Virus record (IMG/VR): IMGVR_UViG_2563366804_000003 | DNA: 15,485 nt | DNA from: a virus | Taxonomy: Duplodnaviria > Heunggongvirae > Uroviricota > Caudoviricetes | Reading direction: 5' to 3' (one strand) | Part shown: one piece after another, positions 6,001-15,000 of the stretch | Position numbering within the stretch: position 1 is the first letter of the stretch | Layout: every line of letters begins with the position of its first letter | Program-made: the position numbers

Positions 6001-9000
6001 TGTAGCCGCGCGATTTGCCATTCTGGAGGCCGCATTGTTGTTAGGCGAGGTTGTAACAGGCTGGGATGCTCAGACATGCCGTGATGCGATACAGCACAGC
6101 TATAACGCATGGTTGCGCGAGTTCGGCACAGGTAACAAAGAGCATCAGCAGATTATTGAACAAACGGAGGCATTTCTTAATGCCTATGGGCTTAGCCGTT
6201 TTGCACCATTTCCATACAGCCCGGCAGATTTGCCCATCAAAGATTTAGCCGGATACCGTCAGCGTGGAGAACATGACGAAAGCCCAATGATTTTCTACAC
6301 ATTCCCGGCCACATTTGAAAAGGAGATCGCATGTGGTTTCAACGCAAAACAGTTTGCTGAAGTGTTGAAAAAAGCCGGGATGCTAACCCCACCAAACAGC
6401 GGTCGTGGATACCAAAGAAAATCACCACGTATTCAGGGACGACAAATAAACGTTTATGTACTCAATTACCAGCCAGGAGATTATAACTCATCTGAAGAAT
6501 GAGCTTCTTCATGTGCGTAGAAAAGGTGTTGGTTCAGTTGGTTCAGTTGGTTCAATTTGTAAAGAGCATTGTTTTATAAGGATTTTATTCTTTTTATTGA
6601 ACCAACACTGAACCAACAACACGGTATTTTGAACCAACACAATGTGACTGAATTGATGCGCACAACACCTGGCTGGCATCAGAGAGTGTTTTACGAGACT
6701 TTCGTAAAATCCTGTGTACAAGGGCGTGACGTTTTTGAAAGTGAGCACTACGAAATTTTCGTAGTTCAGAAAACAGCCTCTGAGAAGTTGTTATGCCTGT
6801 TCAGCAAACCATCCGCATAGCTGATCGCGAATCAAATTACCAATGGAGCCAGAAGCAAGGGCAGAACTGAAAAGCGCCTGCCGTGAAGAGTAATGCGACA
6901 CCATAAATATAGTTTTTAGAGTCCATAAAAAACCTGTCAAAACCTGACACACAGAACGATGCCACCAGCTACTGAGCGGTGGCATTTTTTTGTGCTATTT
7001 GTTTCATATTTTGCAATTACGATGATGAATATTGCGATTTGTGAAACTATAATAACTGTTGTTTTATACAGTTCTAAGGGGGCGTTATGGCTATTTCAGT
7101 AAAGCCGGTATTGATAAGTGAGAAGCAAATGGAAGCGATAAAGAAAATTCAGGAAGAGCAGCGTAAAAAATCAGGAATTGGAGTAGCGCCAACTCTGCAT
7201 GAAATTGCACGAGGGTTAATAGATAAGGCGCTGGCAGGCTGTATGTGAAAATGGATGGCATCGCATGGAACTAAAATTTATTGATAACCCTGTGCGATTA
7301 CAGGCCTTTCTTAACGAGCCAGGCAATACCGAAAATATTGTTGAGCCGGGGCACACGTACTACATCAAGCCTGATGCGGTATATCTCGGCATCTACGAAG
7401 GATTAGTGCTGGCTGGCGTTCATGAAGTGCGTAACTTCTGGCATAGCGTTGTTGAATGCCATGCGGTGTACGACCCCGGATTCCGTGGTGAATATGCACT
7501 GCAAGGACATCGATTATTCTGCAAATGGCTTCTCGAAAACTCACCATTCCTTAACAGCATCACTATGGTTCCTGACACCACGAAATACGGACGGGCAATT
7601 ATCCGTTTGCTTGGCGCTACCCGTGTTGGTCACCTTGATGATGCTTATATCAGATGTGGTAAACCCGTCGGCGTAACGCTTTATCAGTTAACTCGGCAAC
7701 AATATAAGGAATTCAGCGAATGTTAATTACCCATATAGCTCATAAACATCTCAATCGTGCCGTATACGAAAAAGGCGGTGATGGTGGTGCCTCTAAAGCT
7801 CAGGCGAAGGCCCAGCAGCAGGCAATTGATTTGCAGCGCGAGCAGTGGAATACGGTGATGAATAATCTCAAGCCGTATGCAGAAGTCGGATTGCCTGCTT
7901 TACAACAACTACAAGGACTGATGACTCTGGAAGGGCAGAATAAAGCCGCGAATGATTTCTTTGGTTCTGGTTTATATAAAACACAGGCAGATCAGGCCCG
8001 TTATCAGAACCTTGTCTCAGCAGAAGCTACCGGGGGGCTTGGCTCAACAGCTACCAGTAACCAGTTATCTTCCATTGCGCCCATGCTTTATAACAATTGG
8101 CTTAGTGGGCAAATGCAAAATTATGGAAACCTGCTAAATGTCGGGATGAATGCGGCATCAGGGCAGGCAACGGCAGGGCAAAACTACGCCAATAATACCG
8201 GACAACTCTTGCAGGGGCTTGGCGCTATTCGTGCAGGTCAGGCGCAGCAGCCATCCAGTCTTGCGCGTGGTATTGGTGGGGCAGCATCAGGCGCTTTAGC
8301 GGGTGCGCAACTTGGTTCCGTTGTTCCTGGAATAGGAACTGCGGCCGGCGCTATTGGTGGTGGGCTTATTGGTCTTGTTGGGGGGCTTGGATTCTAATGG
8401 CGACATGGCAACTTGGCGGGCTGCCTAGCATGGCACCGCAAAATGATAATGCTCCTCGTTCTTCCGTTCCTCAGCCTGTGCAGTATCAGCAGCAGCCAAA
8501 CGTAGGTTTAATGGCGCTACAGGGGCTAAGAGGCGTTGCTGAGATTAATCAGCAGGCACGTCAACAACAGCGTAAAGCAGAGTTTCAGAAAGCATATGCC
8601 GGGGCTTTTGAGTCTGGAGACAGAAACAAAATGCGCAGTCTTATTTCTGAGTATCCAGAAGAATTTGAAAGCGTTCAGAAAGGGATGGGCTTTATTGATG
8701 ACGACCAGAGAAATTCTATTGGTCATCTTGCGACTAGTGCTCAAATCGCATCTTCGCTCGGAACTGGGGCATTTGGAAAATTCATAGCAGATAACGAAGA
8801 TGAAATGCGTCGCTTGGGAATTTCTCCTGAGTCTGTTGCCGAAATGCATGTTAATGATCCACAGGGGTTCCAGCGGCTTGCTGGTAGTATGGCACTGTTT
8901 TCTCTCGGTCATGAGAAGTATTTCGATATCAAAGATCAAATGGAAGGTCGGGATATTGAGCGTGGCAAGTTGGCAGAGACAATCCGCAGCAATCAGGCTG

Positions 9001-12000: not shown

Positions 12001-15000
12001 CAGAGAATAGATAACCTACCTCATATGGTGCGCCAAAAAAATTAGCTATTGATACGGGCAAAAAAGCTGAAGCGATCAAAATTGAAAGGCAAAAAATAAG
12101 CCCAGTAATATAGTTTATTAAATTCTTAAATGAGAAACGTTTTGCTTGATTTACGGTCTTAACGAACGATCGCTTAACGACGGATAAAAGCAAATAGATG
12201 GCGACAGTTGCTAATGCCCCTTTCCACCAGTCTGGATATAGTTTTGCGACAATCAGACCAAGGAAAACCATGATGACAGCCTGAGCATTCACACCAACCC
12301 TCCCTTTAGCTTTGTTTAGAATGGCAATCATCATATATCCAAGACATGGCATTTGGTACATAGCTTGGGTCAGGATTTCAAATCCGATCCCCGTTGATGG
12401 GGCCGTTACAGTACGCGCATATCCGCTTTATGTGAAACAGGAAGATTTTTCTGATATCACTGCCACAGCAAAACACCAATTTCGTGACCAGTACGCGCGC
12501 GAGGGGTATCAGTTGCAAAATTTTTTGCAACTGCGTCCGACCAGTACGCACACGATGGCGGGGAGCACCATAAAACTGTTCTCTACATAAGACAGAGTGG
12601 TGGTGATGTGTTGATTATCGGCGTATATGCGCACAGGACGCGCTATGACGATGTTTTATGCGGGTACACCAATCACATGTATCTGGTGTGATAAATCGCG
12701 TTACATGACCTCTCATGTTGTGCTGGTGGTTATCACGACTTTCTGAATCTGGCCTTTGCCTGATATTTTGCGACAAGTACGCGCGCGTAGCATCGAAATT
12801 ATCGGATGGCGTATGCTGCTGGCAATATGAAGACCGATAGTATTAACCGAAAAGCGAAAGAGCTTCTCGATAACGGCAAGATCGCGGCAAGGGTTGCTGA
12901 ATTTGAACAGATGTAAGGAATGGAACCAGAGAGGCGCTGGCGGCGAAAAAACGCCACTACCAGCGGATAAATGTGCCAATCTTTTAGTTGGAAAAACAGC
13001 ATAGAAGGCTACCATGATATGTAAAGATTGCTCAAAAAGTTATTATCAACGTCTAATTTCATTAAAAATGCTCCTTATTGCTGTTAAAAATCAAAGAAAT
13101 CATTTAAAAACCGTTCAACACCCCCCATCTGTCTTCAAAAAGATTTGTGTTGGTTAGTGACTAGTTACCTTTTATATGTAAATATATCCACAAGGGAAGT
13201 GGTGAAAATTTCGACTATTTAACCATAATCAAAGGAGGTGAACATGTCGAATACATCTGCACATGCCCTCTTGAAAGATATCTGGGGCGATAGGAAATTC
13301 CCGGTTGATCCAGTATGGATTGCCAATGAGTTAGGGTTGGATGTTGTTGAAACCACGCTTGATGATGATGTTTCAGGCGCATTGCTGAAAGAGCCAGAAC
13401 AAGATCCAGTAATCATACTCAATCGTAATGATAGTAACGTGCGCAAACGATTTACGTGTGCGCATGAGTTAGGGCATTACGTCAAACGAACTGAGAACGG
13501 TCAGCCACTTGAATATGAGTTTGTTGATTACCGCGGAAAACTGGCAAGCCAAGGTGTAGACAGCGAAGAAATATTCGCCAATAACTTTGCAGCATGTCTT
13601 CTCATGCCAGAAAAAGAGGTTCGACGCCTCAACAATGCAGGATATGCACCAGTAATGATGGCTTCCTATTTTGGTGTATCCGATGATGCTATACGTTATC
13701 GCCTAAAGAATTTAGGGCTTCGATGAGTAATGACGTCTAGATCTTACGCTATATCTGAAAAACTAAAGCAAGCGGCAAGACAAGCCAGAGGTGAACCAGC
13801 CTCTGGCTCATCACCATCAGCAAAAACCCTCACACATCTAAATGATGAGGATCCAGCCAAAGCCCATCAGCGTGCAAAAACAAAAGATTTAAAAACAGAC
13901 ACAAAACTGAAAAAAATGTTTGCTCGGTGGTTTATCGGCATTCTGATAGGCCAGCTATTAGTTATGAATGGGATTTTTGTCCTTATTGGAGCAAAACTGC
14001 TCCATTTTAGTGATTTCGTTATAAACCTATTTATGGGGGGAACCCTCGCTGAAGTCTTTGGCATTGTTTTAGTGATGGCACGCTACCTGTTCTCCAAGCA
14101 CGTCTAAAAATCAAAATATAGGGCTACATTCTTAGAGCCACTGATAACTTTTCAGCATTGCTTCCCTGACGCTTCCACGCGCTGTAAATGTCTTTATCCC
14201 ATGCTTTACCAGCTTTTGTTTGATAGCCTGCTTCATTGAGCCGTTCCGCTATCACACGCCCATTATCAAATCCCTGTCGGATGGTATCGGCAATGATCTT
14301 TATAACTGCCGTTTCGTTATATGGCTTTGGTGGGATGTTCGGCTTTCCGGCAATAAGCGACGCAGCGGCTTTTTCCATGCGCTCCACCAGCCCAAGCATT
14401 CGTGAATCAATAGACTTTTCCGGCTGTCCCAGCTTCATGCGAATCGCATCAACAAGCCAGGAGGTTTTATCCCCTCCAGAAGCGAGAACAGACCGATTAA
14501 ACTCATCCTGCAATTCAGATGGGATGCGGAACGCGACCAGATTAGATTTGCTCATTGCAAAGACCATATCAGTGAGTAATATCCATACAGTATACCACTG
14601 TATAACACTGTTATACGCTCAAATATCAGCCAGAAAATAACGGGCCAATCACAAAGCTATCGCTGTGTTGTTGGTTCAGAGCTGGGCTGTGTTGGTTCAA
14701 AATGAGTTGATGTTGGTTCAATATTTCAGAAAAAACACAATAAAAACAACGATCTTTACAAATTGAACCAACTGAACCAACTGAACCAACTGAACCAACA
14801 CCTTTTTGCTTATCTATATAATCTGAGAGGCAGAAATGATAAGGGACAGGAAAGCTGAAGAGCTGGAGTCAAAAGGGCTATACCGGAGAGCTGCCGCACG
14901 ATGGGCAGAAGTCATGATGCTGGCAGATGGCGATAAAGAACGTGAACATGCAGCAAACAGACGCTCTGAATGTATCCGTAAGGCGGCACGCCCACCAGCA

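What the first reader, a model, noticed from the sequence alone, without database searches (positions are those of the whole stretch)
6527..14800. Two inverted ori-like iteron clusters bracket about 8 kb of cargo
Cluster A (6527-6640) and cluster B (14670-14800) are reverse-complement copies of each other: tandem GTTGGTTCA units, a shared caatttgtaaaga junction, an AT-rich spacer and opposite-orientation TGAACCAAC units. Copy A has three tandem units and copy B four, and the spacers have diverged. In P4, the alpha primase binds iterons in two separate regions, ori and crr, that are both needed for replication. Here the two iteron regions are much further apart and enclose the whole ejection-like and ImmA cargo. 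This is consistent with cargo having been inserted between ori and crr equivalents, or with the inverted repeats mediating inversion or acquisition of the segment.
Basis: seen in the sequence. Interest (0 to 1): 0.65.

Follow-up and report, generated by a model that had tools for sequence, protein, structure and literature searches.

The report
Phage-satellite replication origin split in two
The two inverted repeat clusters are the two mirror-image halves of the replication origin of an E. coli phage satellite. In most relatives the halves sit side by side; here about 8 kb of the satellite's own genes lies between them.

Summary
GTTGGTTCA occurs 13 times exactly, only in cluster A (6528-6638) and cluster B (14670-14799). 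Each cluster has a tandem array, a 43-nt AT-rich spacer and three spaced units in the opposite orientation, and B is an inverted copy of A.

The window is a complete EcCIMP1-like phage-inducible chromosomal island (PICI) between yicC and dinD of E. coli. Cluster A is the canonical PICI origin, immediately 3' of the TOPRIM-DUF927 primase-helicase gene.

In most of about 140 related loci, both halves lie together within about 300 bp after the primase gene. The iteron sequence changes with the helicase/C-terminal part of the protein.

In one lineage the halves are 5.9-8.6 kb apart: E. coli, Leclercia, Rosenbergiella and Lonsdalea, all with GTTGGTTCA. Two Lonsdalea islands that are 93-97% identical in their flanks differ by exactly this.

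B's iterons are 97% conserved across four genera, against 62% for the bases between them, so B is a maintained binding array.

This is not a P4 ori/crr member. No inversion isomer was found in 552 genomes. The enclosed genes are the satellite's own P22-type module, not foreign cargo. B also survives as an orphan in islands that carry a different replicase.

Verdict: a new variant of a known kind, of moderate interest.

The parts
4085..6502 (+). Pri-Rep gene (TOPRIM + DUF927 primase-helicase/initiator). In this window it is an in-frame fusion of an ash-family N-terminus to Pri-Rep from about residue 231. The zinc ribbon is lost; the helicase and C-terminal domain are kept.
   Evidence: Pfam Toprim_3 and DUF927. 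The window equals L002 minus 3,365 bp, with the junction at 4436-4439. Homology to a solved staphylococcal 'pathogenicity island protein', 8tch, E 1.4e-11.
6528..6554 (+). Cluster A, outer array: 3 tandem GTTGGTTCA units
6555..6597 (.). Cluster A spacer: 43 nt, AT-rich, begins ATTTGTAAAGA. Presumed DNA unwinding region.
   Evidence: Spacer length is the same in all 10 aligned A and B copies from four genera.
6598..6638 (-). Cluster A, inner array: 3 spaced units (TGAACCAAC on the + strand) at 6598, 6609 and 6630
6668..6678 (+). CCTGGCTGGCA, the motif that marks the centre of the contiguous origin in relatives. In the window, similarity to contiguous origins stops just after it.
   Evidence: TTCTGGCTGGC-like motif between the halves in L010, L021, L025, L030, L033, L037, L039, L041; also after cluster 1 of the DUF5906 islands.
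6639..14669 (.). Segment between the halves (8,031 bp): small ORF; homologues of P22 gp14 (DUF2824), gp7, gp20 and a gp16-like ORF; a membrane protein (-); ImmA/IrrE peptidase and a 125-aa ORF; a 147-aa putative ribbon-helix-helix gene (-)
   Evidence: Pfam; RefSeq annotation of the identical locus; the same module in the characterised PICI EcCIMP1.
14586..14615 (-). Direct repeats TATAACAGTGTTATACAGTGGTATACTGTA upstream of the 147-aa gene: that gene's own presumed operator, distinct from the iterons
   Evidence: Homologues in L037 and L079 carry the same TGTTATAC-type repeats; L024, L018, L025 and L036 carry TGTCTTAC-type repeats. L025, L036, L037 and L079 have no iterons next to the gene.
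14670..14720 (+). Cluster B, inner array: 3 GTTGGTTCA units at 21-nt spacing (14670, 14691, 14712)
14721..14763 (.). Cluster B spacer: 43 nt, AT-rich, ends with the reverse complement of ATTTGTAAAGA
14764..14799 (-). Cluster B, outer array: 4 tandem units (2-3 in the relatives read; lost in L005)
14800..14835 (+). CACCTTTTTGCTTATCTATATAAT... flank. It is the conserved right-hand flank of the contiguous origin in relatives and leads into the next + strand gene.
   Evidence: the same CTTTTTGCTTATATATA-type flank after the second half in L021, L025, L030, L039, L041, L046, L066.
14836..15123 (+). perC-family regulator gene, 37 bp from cluster B
   Evidence: Pfam PerC, E 2.6e-33

Best explanation
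A and B are the two mirror-image units of a bipartite PICI replication origin recognised by the island's TOPRIM-DUF927 Pri-Rep protein. Each unit has an outer tandem array of the 9-bp iteron, a 43-bp AT-rich stretch that would melt, and an inner array of spaced iterons. In most relatives the two units abut, directly after the Pri-Rep gene. In the EcCIMP1-like lineage the satellite's P22-type module and accessory genes lie between them, so unit A stays next to pri-rep and unit B ends up next to perC near the right end.

Inferred mechanism. The C-terminal domain of Pri-Rep binds the iterons in both units. Each unit matches the iteron / AT-rich / iteron layout that published work describes as the PICI and SaPI origin, so A and B either fire as two origins or are bridged by Pri-Rep, as P4 ori and crr are.

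What is shown and what is inferred. Shown: the layout, the homology of B to the second origin half, the covariation of iterons with the helicase/C-terminal part of Pri-Rep, and selective conservation of B's iterons. Inferred: binding, melting, and any cooperation between A and B.
For: (1) A is immediately 3' of pri-rep, with two iteron sets around an AT-rich region. This is the published PICI origin layout (PMC6092414, PMC9371898).

(2) I scanned 141 related pri-rep loci: 62 from species-representative genomes and E. coli, plus the window, and 79 from viral contigs. About 75 have both halves in one 170-350 bp block right after the gene. About 32 show only the first half, some on truncated contigs. 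In 16 no repeated 7-mer was detected. Fifteen have the second half 5.9-8.6 kb away, always with GTTGGTTCA, and one has it 0.4 kb away.

(3) In L030, L033, L037 and L039 the adjacent second half has B's layout: spaced units, a 43-nt AT spacer ending ...TCTTTACAAAT, then a tandem array, followed by the same CTTTTTGCTTATATATA-type flank that follows B here. In L033 and L037 all three spaced units have B's orientation.

(4) Lonsdalea L018 (split) and L066 (contiguous) are 93-97% identical on both sides. 5.86 kb in L018 replaces 118 bp in the centre of L066's origin.

(5) Iterons differ between lineages (GTTGGTTCA, GTTGTCTCA, TAACCCGT, GTTGTACCA, GTCGGTTCA and others), and both halves of an origin always carry the same one.

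(6) Only Pri-Rep residues 841-918 track iteron type. The effect is +0.166 identity after controlling for core identity, and 78% against 63% among pairs with core identity above 85%. E. coli islands with different iterons share the N-terminal 1 kb of the gene (88-89% identical) and differ in the helicase/C-terminal part plus the origin.

(7) Across four genera B's iteron columns are 96.6% identical and the columns between them 61.5% (A: 98.1% and 57.2%). The 43-nt spacer length never changes.

(8) In a spread sample, all 25 E. coli genomes that carry A also have a second place matching the A query, consistent with B.

(9) EcCIMP1, which is experimentally excised and transferred by the P22-like phage Kapi1, has the same A/B split (PMC11773190).
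Against: No experiment shows that Pri-Rep binds either cluster, or that B contributes to replication.

Islands with only the first half exist (for example L019 and L022, with 10 kb of downstream sequence held), so a second half is not universally required.

B persists in islands whose replicase is the DUF5906 type with different iterons (ACCTRTACCA). About 9 of 23 sampled genomes with an intact B have no A-type match, and the 3 of those I inspected all carry DUF5906. So B can be carried without a cognate initiator.

Every split example uses the same iteron. A covariation test between distant A and B was therefore not possible.

Many contiguous origins have a GC-rich rather than AT-rich spacer in the second half (L007, L010, L066), so the second half is not always a melting unit.

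The window's own Pri-Rep lacks its zinc ribbon, so this particular copy may not replicate on its own.
Confidence: 0.6

Rival explanations
1. B is a control or regulatory array, not an initiation site. Extra iterons away from the origin would titrate or pair with Pri-Rep (as P1 incA and plasmid handcuffing do; own knowledge). Alternatively they would let Pri-Rep regulate perC and the divergent 147-aa gene, whose shared upstream region B occupies.
For: B fills the 268-bp gap between the two divergent genes and ends 37 bp before perC. In contiguous origins the second half is always followed by a conserved TATA-rich flank and a + strand gene (ssb, perC or a small secreted protein). Many second halves have a GC-rich spacer that is unlikely to melt. 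First-half-only islands exist.
Against: B keeps the full origin geometry, including the 43-nt AT-rich spacer whose length is invariant across genera. The consensus promoter scan called no promoter in or beside B. In L024 and L018 perC is not next to B.
Confidence: 0.2
2. B is a functionless relic: a leftover origin half carried along by recombination between islands, no longer used.
For: Orphan B in DUF5906 islands. Those copies show some wear: tandem units number 3, 2 exact plus 1 mutated, 2, and a 116-bp deletion, against 4, 3, 3, 3 in DUF927 islands. The islands are mosaics whose module boundaries fall at the iteron arrays.
Against: B's iterons are 96.6% conserved across E. coli, Leclercia, Rosenbergiella and Lonsdalea while the bases between them are at 61.5%, and the spacer length is fixed. 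All 25 sampled genomes that carry A show a second matching place. The count of worn orphan copies is too small (n=4) to show decay.
Confidence: 0.13
3. The inverted repeats mediate inversion or capture of the 8-kb segment.
For: About 130 nt of inverted similarity, including 48 nt at 96%. Module exchange boundaries coincide with the arrays.
Against: A simulated inversion junction is found as one piece in 0 of 552 complete E. coli genomes that hold its parts. Gene orientation within the segment is the same in all split islands examined.
Confidence: 0.04
4. The repeats at B are operators of the adjacent 147-aa putative ribbon-helix-helix protein, not replication sites.
For: B lies upstream of that gene here and in L024 and L018. 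Tandem short repeats are typical targets of such repressors (own knowledge).
Against: The gene has its own covarying repeats next to its start (TGTTATAC or TGTCTTAC types). In L025, L036, L037 and L079 it occurs with no iterons nearby. EcCIMP1 has B but no such gene. The same iteron forms A next to pri-rep and covaries with Pri-Rep. Pfam finds no domain in the 147-aa protein.
Confidence: 0.03

Closest known systems
PICI / SaPI replication origin (Pri-Rep plus an origin immediately 3' of rep; Ubeda et al. 2007 from own knowledge; Fillol-Salom et al. 2018, PMC6092414; Qiao et al. 2022, PMC9371898)
   Same: The initiator-helicase gene is followed at once by iterons in two opposed sets around an AT-rich region. 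The initiator's C-terminal domain is the specificity determinant. The island has int, alpA and pri-rep in one direction. The Pri-Rep core is homologous to a solved staphylococcal island protein.
   Different: Here the origin has two such units in mirror image, and in this lineage they are about 8 kb apart with genes between them. Neither the double unit nor the split came up in my keyword searches of the held paper library or in the papers I read.
EcCIMP1, the E. coli MP1 PICI mobilised by the P22-like phage Kapi1 (Pick et al. 2025, PMC11773190)
   Same: Same family and gene order: antA, DUF4222, ash, TOPRIM-DUF927 primase, small ORF, DUF2824, gp7-like and gp20-like genes, perC. Same A/B split (A at L008 8462-8582, B at 17002-17122).
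   Different: The integration site differs (yicC-dinD here; the proA-yagU region there, PMC11773190), as do the accessory genes. EcCIMP1 has the full-length 918-aa primase and a second allelic form of B's spacer. A term search of the paper found no mention of an origin, iterons or ejection proteins.
Satellite phage P4 ori and crr (own knowledge: Flensburg and Calendar 1987; Ziegelin et al. 1993, 1995)
   Same: A satellite whose primase-helicase-initiator recognises short repeats in two regions kilobases apart, so long-range cooperation by protein bridging is a plausible model.
   Different: The replicase family differs: only the zinc-ribbon region matches proteins annotated as alpha. The iteron differs. 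B is an inverted complete origin unit, not two direct 120-bp repeats. In relatives the two regions are contiguous.
Auxiliary iteron loci of iteron plasmids (P1 incA, R6K alpha/beta/gamma, handcuffing; own knowledge; review PMC4980987 appeared in search results but was not read)
   Same: The same initiator-binding repeats occur at a second site away from the origin, which could loop to or pair with the origin.
   Different: Those initiators are Rep-family dimers or monomers without helicase activity. Their control loci lack an origin-like AT-rich unit. Here B is a full mirror copy of the origin unit.

Membership tests
Gram-negative PICI (phage-inducible chromosomal island) | Integrase at one end, an alpA-type regulator after it, and rightward unidirectional core genes | tested here: met
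   Integrase domains; Phage_AlpA, E 2.2e-8; int-alpA RNA motif RF02996 at 1269-1335, 60.6 bits; gene order.
Gram-negative PICI (phage-inducible chromosomal island) | A pri-rep gene followed immediately by an origin with two iteron sets flanking an AT-rich region | tested here: met
   Cluster A starts 26 nt after the stop codon: 3 + 3 units around a 43-nt spacer that is 81% A+T. Definition from PMC6092414.
Gram-negative PICI (phage-inducible chromosomal island) | Small size (about 10-15 kb) with no capsid, tail or lysis genes | tested here: met
   About 15.6 kb between att repeats GTGTACATA-N3-GTGTACATAAT. Only ejection-protein homologues of P22 gp14, gp7 and gp20, plus a gp16-position ORF annotated as an injection protein, were found among the ORFs scanned.
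Gram-negative PICI (phage-inducible chromosomal island) | Induction, replication and packaging depend on a helper phage | not testable with these tools
   Excision and transfer by Kapi1 are shown experimentally for the relative EcCIMP1 (PMC11773190), not for this island. This copy has a truncated Pri-Rep.
P4 ori/crr replication system | An alpha-type primase-helicase-initiator | tested here: not met
   Pfam gives Toprim_3 + DUF927. In tblastn against 50,697 phage records, no record has a place covering 80% or more of the query, and the one listed hit annotated as a P4-specific alpha primase covers only residues 17-96.
P4 ori/crr replication system | Type I iteron TGTTCACC in both regions | tested here: not met
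   One isolated hit at 13237, none in A or B. The P4 octamer sequence is from own knowledge.
P4 ori/crr replication system | crr consists of two direct repeats of about 120 bp, distinct from ori | tested here: not met
   B is a single inverted copy of the whole A unit. The crr structure is from own knowledge.
P4 ori/crr replication system | Both separated regions are required in cis for replication | not testable with these tools
   Needs deletion analysis.
Invertible DNA segment bounded by inverted repeats | Both orientations of the segment occur in nature | tested here: not met
   0 of 552 E. coli genomes with a match hold the simulated inversion junction in one place.
Plasmid-type auxiliary iteron (copy-control) locus | Extra initiator sites outside the origin that lack an unwinding element | tested here: inconclusive
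   B carries a length-conserved 43-nt AT-rich spacer like A. Some relatives' second halves have GC-rich spacers instead.

The most novel reading that the evidence does not exclude
The split origin is a working long-range bipartite origin. Two complete mirror-image origin units 6-8.5 kb apart are both used by Pri-Rep, either bridged by looping or firing toward each other. The enclosed helper-exploitation and defence genes would then be the first and most amplified DNA after induction. The centre of the PICI origin would also be a recurrent place where genes are nested: 5.9-8.6 kb in the GTTGGTTCA lineage, two genes between the ACCTRTACCA clusters of the DUF5906 islands, and about 0.4 kb in L038.
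Probability: 0.25. Interest if true: 0.7.

Novelty: new variant of a known kind. Interest (0 to 1): 0.5.

Why it matters
PICI and SaPI origins are described as one compact unit next to rep. This analysis shows two things. In Enterobacterales satellites with DUF927 Pri-Rep, the origin is usually a double, mirror-image structure. In a widespread lineage, present in several hundred of 5,426 complete E. coli genomes and including the experimentally tractable EcCIMP1, the two units are kilobases apart with the satellite's phage-exploitation and accessory genes between them.

This raises a directly testable question: does a self-loading helicase-initiator use distant origin units together, and does that affect the dosage or timing of the enclosed genes?

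It also shows that iteron arrays are the seams at which replication modules and cargo are exchanged between satellites. And it warns annotators that a second origin-like array in such islands may be an orphan from a replaced replicon.

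Tried and rejected
- P4 membership: rejected on replicase family, iteron sequence and repeat structure.
- Inversion: a chimeric junction query found no inverted isomer.
- The 147-aa putative ribbon-helix-helix protein as binder: rejected, because the gene has its own covarying operator repeats and B occurs without it. Pfam gave no domain for it, so the fold assignment rests only on reading its N-terminal sequence.
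- Covariation between distant A and B: scans of species-representative genomes and of viral contigs found split origins only with GTTGGTTCA, so this test could not be made. The GTTGTCTCA-type origin is contiguous in all 34 E. coli genomes that hold it in full.
- Promoter and terminator scans around A and B gave no promoter calls.
- Structure prediction of the Pri-Rep C-terminal 140 residues from a single sequence gave mean pLDDT 49. It was unusable and I did not take it to a fold search.
- Sliding-window identity of Pri-Rep against iteron type was unclear by eye. The pairwise regression was clearer, but its pairs are not phylogenetically independent.
- Keyword searches for a described split or double PICI origin found none. 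P4 crr papers were not in the searchable library.
- I did not work out the rearrangement that first separated the halves. Simple insertion, inversion and cointegrate models each fit only part of the gene orders seen. For example, perC follows A in L018 and L024, but follows B in E. coli.

Full report
**1. The observation**

Reading both regions and searching the motif confirms the finding.
- GTTGGTTCA occurs 13 times exactly, and only in two places.
- Cluster A has three tandem units at 6528-6554, a 43-nt spacer that begins ATTTGTAAAGA, and three units on the other strand at 6598, 6609 and 6630.
- Cluster B, read on the minus strand, has four tandem units (14799-14764), a 43-nt spacer with the same start, and three units at 21-nt spacing (14720-14670).
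- With one mismatch allowed there are 21 hits, against 3.46 +/- 1.82 in shuffles; none of 200 shuffles reached 21.
- The repeat finder reports 48 nt at 96% complementarity between 6528-6575 and 14743-14790.

So B is an inverted copy of the whole A unit, not just a second patch of the same motif.

**2. What the window is**

- The window is 100% identical to the chromosome of E. coli MB06101, between yicC and dinD.
- It is bounded by att repeats of the form GTGTACATA-N3-GTGTACATAAT. The right one lies about 60 bp beyond the window's end.
- Gene content: integrase; the int-alpA RNA motif; an AlpA-type regulator; AntA; DUF4222; a TOPRIM-DUF927 primase-helicase; a small ORF; homologues of P22 gp14 (DUF2824), gp7 and gp20, and a gp16-position ORF annotated as an injection protein; a membrane protein; an ImmA/IrrE peptidase; a 147-aa gene on the minus strand; and perC.
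- This is the organisation of EcCIMP1, a PICI of E. coli MP1 that is excised and transferred by the P22-like phage Kapi1 (PMC11773190).
- The EcCIMP1 locus itself (L008) has the same A and B clusters.

The genes between A and B are therefore the family's conserved module downstream of the primase, plus a variable accessory region. They are not a recent foreign insert.

**3. Cluster A alone is a known thing**

- The published layout of PICI and SaPI origins is two iteron sets around an AT-rich region, immediately 3' of the initiator gene (PMC6092414).
- A starts 26 nt after the Pri-Rep stop codon.
- The DUF927 core is homologous to a solved staphylococcal 'pathogenicity island protein', 8tch, E 1.4e-11.

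**4. Where B comes from**

I aligned five Pri-Rep proteins and fetched relatives with 10-kb flanks from one genome per species and from viral contigs. For each locus I took the commonest 7- or 8-mer just after the gene and mapped it across the locus. The window and four E. coli loci fetched earlier were included, giving 141 scanned loci.

| Arrangement | Loci (of 141) |
|---|---|
| All copies in one 170-350 bp block right after the gene | about 75 |
| First unit only (some on truncated contigs) | about 32 |
| No repeated 7-mer detected | 16 |
| Second cluster 5.9-8.6 kb downstream | 15 |
| Second cluster 0.4 kb downstream (L038) | 1 |
| Other (clusters upstream of the gene: L030, L092) | 2 |

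The 15 widely split loci are the window, L002, L008, L018, L024, L049, L091, L093, L094, L096, L097, L125 and L128, plus, less clearly, L035, whose only downstream hits are one pair of opposed units at +6256/+6279 and a single unit at +7182. L003, which was not in the table, has the same layout.

The contiguous block has a fixed plan:
- a tandem triplet;
- a 43-nt AT spacer;
- three or four spaced units on the other strand;
- a TTCTGGCTGGC-like central motif;
- more spaced units and a spacer;
- a tandem triplet that mirrors the first;
- a CTTTTTGCTTATATATA-type flank, then the next gene (ssb or perC).

In L030, L033, L037 and L039 the second half has B's layout: spaced units, a 43-nt AT spacer ending ...TCTTTACAAAT, then the tandem array. 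In L033 and L037 all three spaced units have B's orientation.

In the window, the central motif is present just after A (CCTGGCTGGCA, 6668-6678). B is followed by CACCTTTTTGCTTATCTATATAAT and then perC. A is therefore the left unit and B the right unit of this plan.

**5. A direct comparison within one species**

Two Lonsdalea britannica islands are 93-97% identical over the genes upstream, over pri-rep and the first unit, and again from the outer tandem array of the second unit onward. L018 has 5.86 kb (12893-18749) where L066 has 118 bp (8808-8925).

It shows exchange of a split cassette for a contiguous one, using the origin's edges as homology. It does not show the original insertion event.

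In E. coli itself, L007 sits at the same yicC-dinD site with primase, a contiguous origin (iteron GTTGTCTCA), ssb and perC, and no P22-type genes. That origin is contiguous in all 34 E. coli genomes that hold it in full.

**6. Who reads the iterons**

- Iterons differ between lineages, and both halves always share one.
- Among 861 pairs of 42 full-length Pri-Rep proteins, only residues 841-918 are more alike when the iteron is the same. The effect is +0.166 after controlling for core identity, and 78% against 63% among pairs with more than 85% core identity. All other segments show no positive effect. The pairs are not independent, so I treat this as supportive only.
- Independent support comes from E. 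coli islands with the same backbone but a DUF5906-type replicase (L004, L005, L089, L090). They share the first ~1 kb of the gene (zinc ribbon and Toprim, 88-89% identical) with the DUF927 type. They differ from there to just past the origin, and homology resumes about 180 nt after the DUF927 stop codon.
- Those islands carry their own iteron, ACCTRTACCA, in two clusters separated by two small genes.

Specificity therefore travels with the helicase/C-terminal part and not with the N-terminal primase domain.

**7. Is B maintained?**

I aligned A and B from the window, EcCIMP1, Leclercia, Rosenbergiella and Lonsdalea and compared iteron columns with the columns between iterons.

| Comparison | Iteron columns identical | Columns between iterons identical |
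|---|---|---|
| B against B, across genera | 96.6% | 61.5% |
| A against A, across genera | 98.1% | 57.2% |

- The 43-nt spacer has no length change in any of the ten sequences.
- This is the pattern expected of protein-binding sites with fixed geometry.
- In a spread sample of E. coli genomes, all 25 that hold A also have a second place matching the A query, consistent with B.
- The distance from A to B varies between 7.4 and 8.6 kb among E. coli-like islands, because the accessory genes differ.

**8. Evidence that limits the functional claim**

- In a spread sample, 9 of 23 genomes with a full-length B have only one matching place. The three I inspected all carry the DUF5906 replicase. B can therefore be carried without its presumed initiator.
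- Those orphan copies have 3, 2 exact plus 1 mutated, and 2 tandem units, and one island (L005) has a 116-bp deletion. The DUF927 islands have 4, 3, 3 and 3. This is suggestive of relaxed constraint, but four cases are too few.
- Islands with only the first unit exist.
- Many contiguous origins have a GC-rich second spacer.
- Every split origin found uses the same iteron, so I could not test covariation between distant halves.

**9. Alternatives examined**

- Inversion: a query built as the junction an A x B inversion would create is never found in one piece, in 0 of 552 genomes holding its parts.
- The 147-aa protein as binder: the gene has its own repeats at its start (TATAACAGTGTTATACAGTGGTATAC here; TGTCTTAC-type in other alleles). 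It occurs without iterons in L025, L036, L037 and L079, and EcCIMP1 has B without it.
- P4: the replicase is not alpha, the P4 octamer is absent from A and B, and B is not crr-like.
- A regulatory or copy-control role for B remains open. B fills the gap between two divergent genes, but no consensus promoter was called there.

**10. This particular copy**

The window equals the common form (L002) minus 3,365 bp. The deletion fuses the first 118 codons of the ash-family gene in frame to Pri-Rep from about residue 231. The zinc ribbon is lost; Toprim, the helicase and the C-terminal domain remain. Of the listed best matches, only two (H1 and H2) align to the window as a single piece; the rest carry extra DNA or other differences. 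This island may need a helper or a co-resident element to prime replication.

**11. Verdict**

- The P4 filing, the inversion idea and the 'N-terminal domain' suggestion are not supported.
- The element is a member of the PICI family whose origin is a split version of a double origin. Neither the double unit nor the split came up in my searches of the held paper library.
- Whether B acts in initiation, in control, or not at all needs the experiments listed under next steps. EcCIMP1 provides the system for them.

Noticed in passing
window 4085-6502 (junction at 4436-4439): The primase-helicase gene is a deletion product. 3,365 bp present in relatives (L002 5940-9304: most of an ash-family gene, six small genes and the first ~230 codons of pri-rep) is missing. 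This gives an in-frame ash::pri-rep fusion without the zinc ribbon. Only the two best of the listed E. coli matches (H1, H2) align to the window as a single piece.
   Followed up: yes
window 1269-1335 (+): Rfam int-alpA RNA motif (RF02996, 60.6 bits, E 1e-10) between the integrase gene and the next ORF.
   Followed up: no
L004 8984-9090 and 10097-10200 (also L005, L089, L090): Sister islands with a DUF5906-type replicase have their own iteron, ACCTRTACCA, in two clusters about 1.1 kb apart. The clusters bracket two small genes with no Pfam domain. A TTCTTCTGGCTGGC motif follows the first cluster. This looks like a second, independent case of genes nested inside a satellite origin.
   Followed up: partly
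window 14586-14615 (-): Direct repeats TATAACAGTGTTATACAGTGGTATACTGTA just upstream of the 147-aa minus-strand gene. Homologues in other genera carry matching (TGTTATAC) or alternative (TGTCTTAC) repeats at the same place, which suggests an autoregulated repressor with allele-specific operators.
   Followed up: partly
window 12473-12505, 12539-12558, 12759-12791 and 15436-15468: A ~20-29 nt repeat (…TTTCGTGACCAGTACGCGCGCG…) occurs three times in the 877-bp non-coding gap before immA and once after perC, near the right end of the island. The copies bracket the variable accessory region. Their function is unknown.
   Followed up: no
window 9818-11923 (+): The gp16-position ORF reads through as 701 aa here, but RefSeq annotates it as an incomplete 'injection protein' pseudogene (missing C-terminus) in the identical locus. 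Pfam finds no domain in it. In EcCIMP1 the gene at this position carries a lytic transglycosylase domain instead.
   Followed up: no
L030 (Yersinia pekkanenii), about 5.7 kb and 1.1 kb upstream of the primase match end, and just after it: Three copies of the origin block in one locus, two of them upstream of or inside the stretched primase match (10001-13866). This may be tandem elements or an origin inserted in the gene.
   Followed up: no
L002 8615-9621 versus L004 6606-7627: The DUF927-type and DUF5906-type replicase genes share their first ~1 kb (zinc ribbon and Toprim) at 88-89% identity, then diverge completely. The helicase-initiator part and its origin appear to be swapped as a unit inside one gene.
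   Followed up: partly
L001 11918-11945 and 27548-27575 (window-equivalent about -80 and about 15548-15575): Putative att repeats GTGTACATA-N3-GTGTACATAAT flank the island. The right one lies just beyond the end of the window.
   Followed up: no
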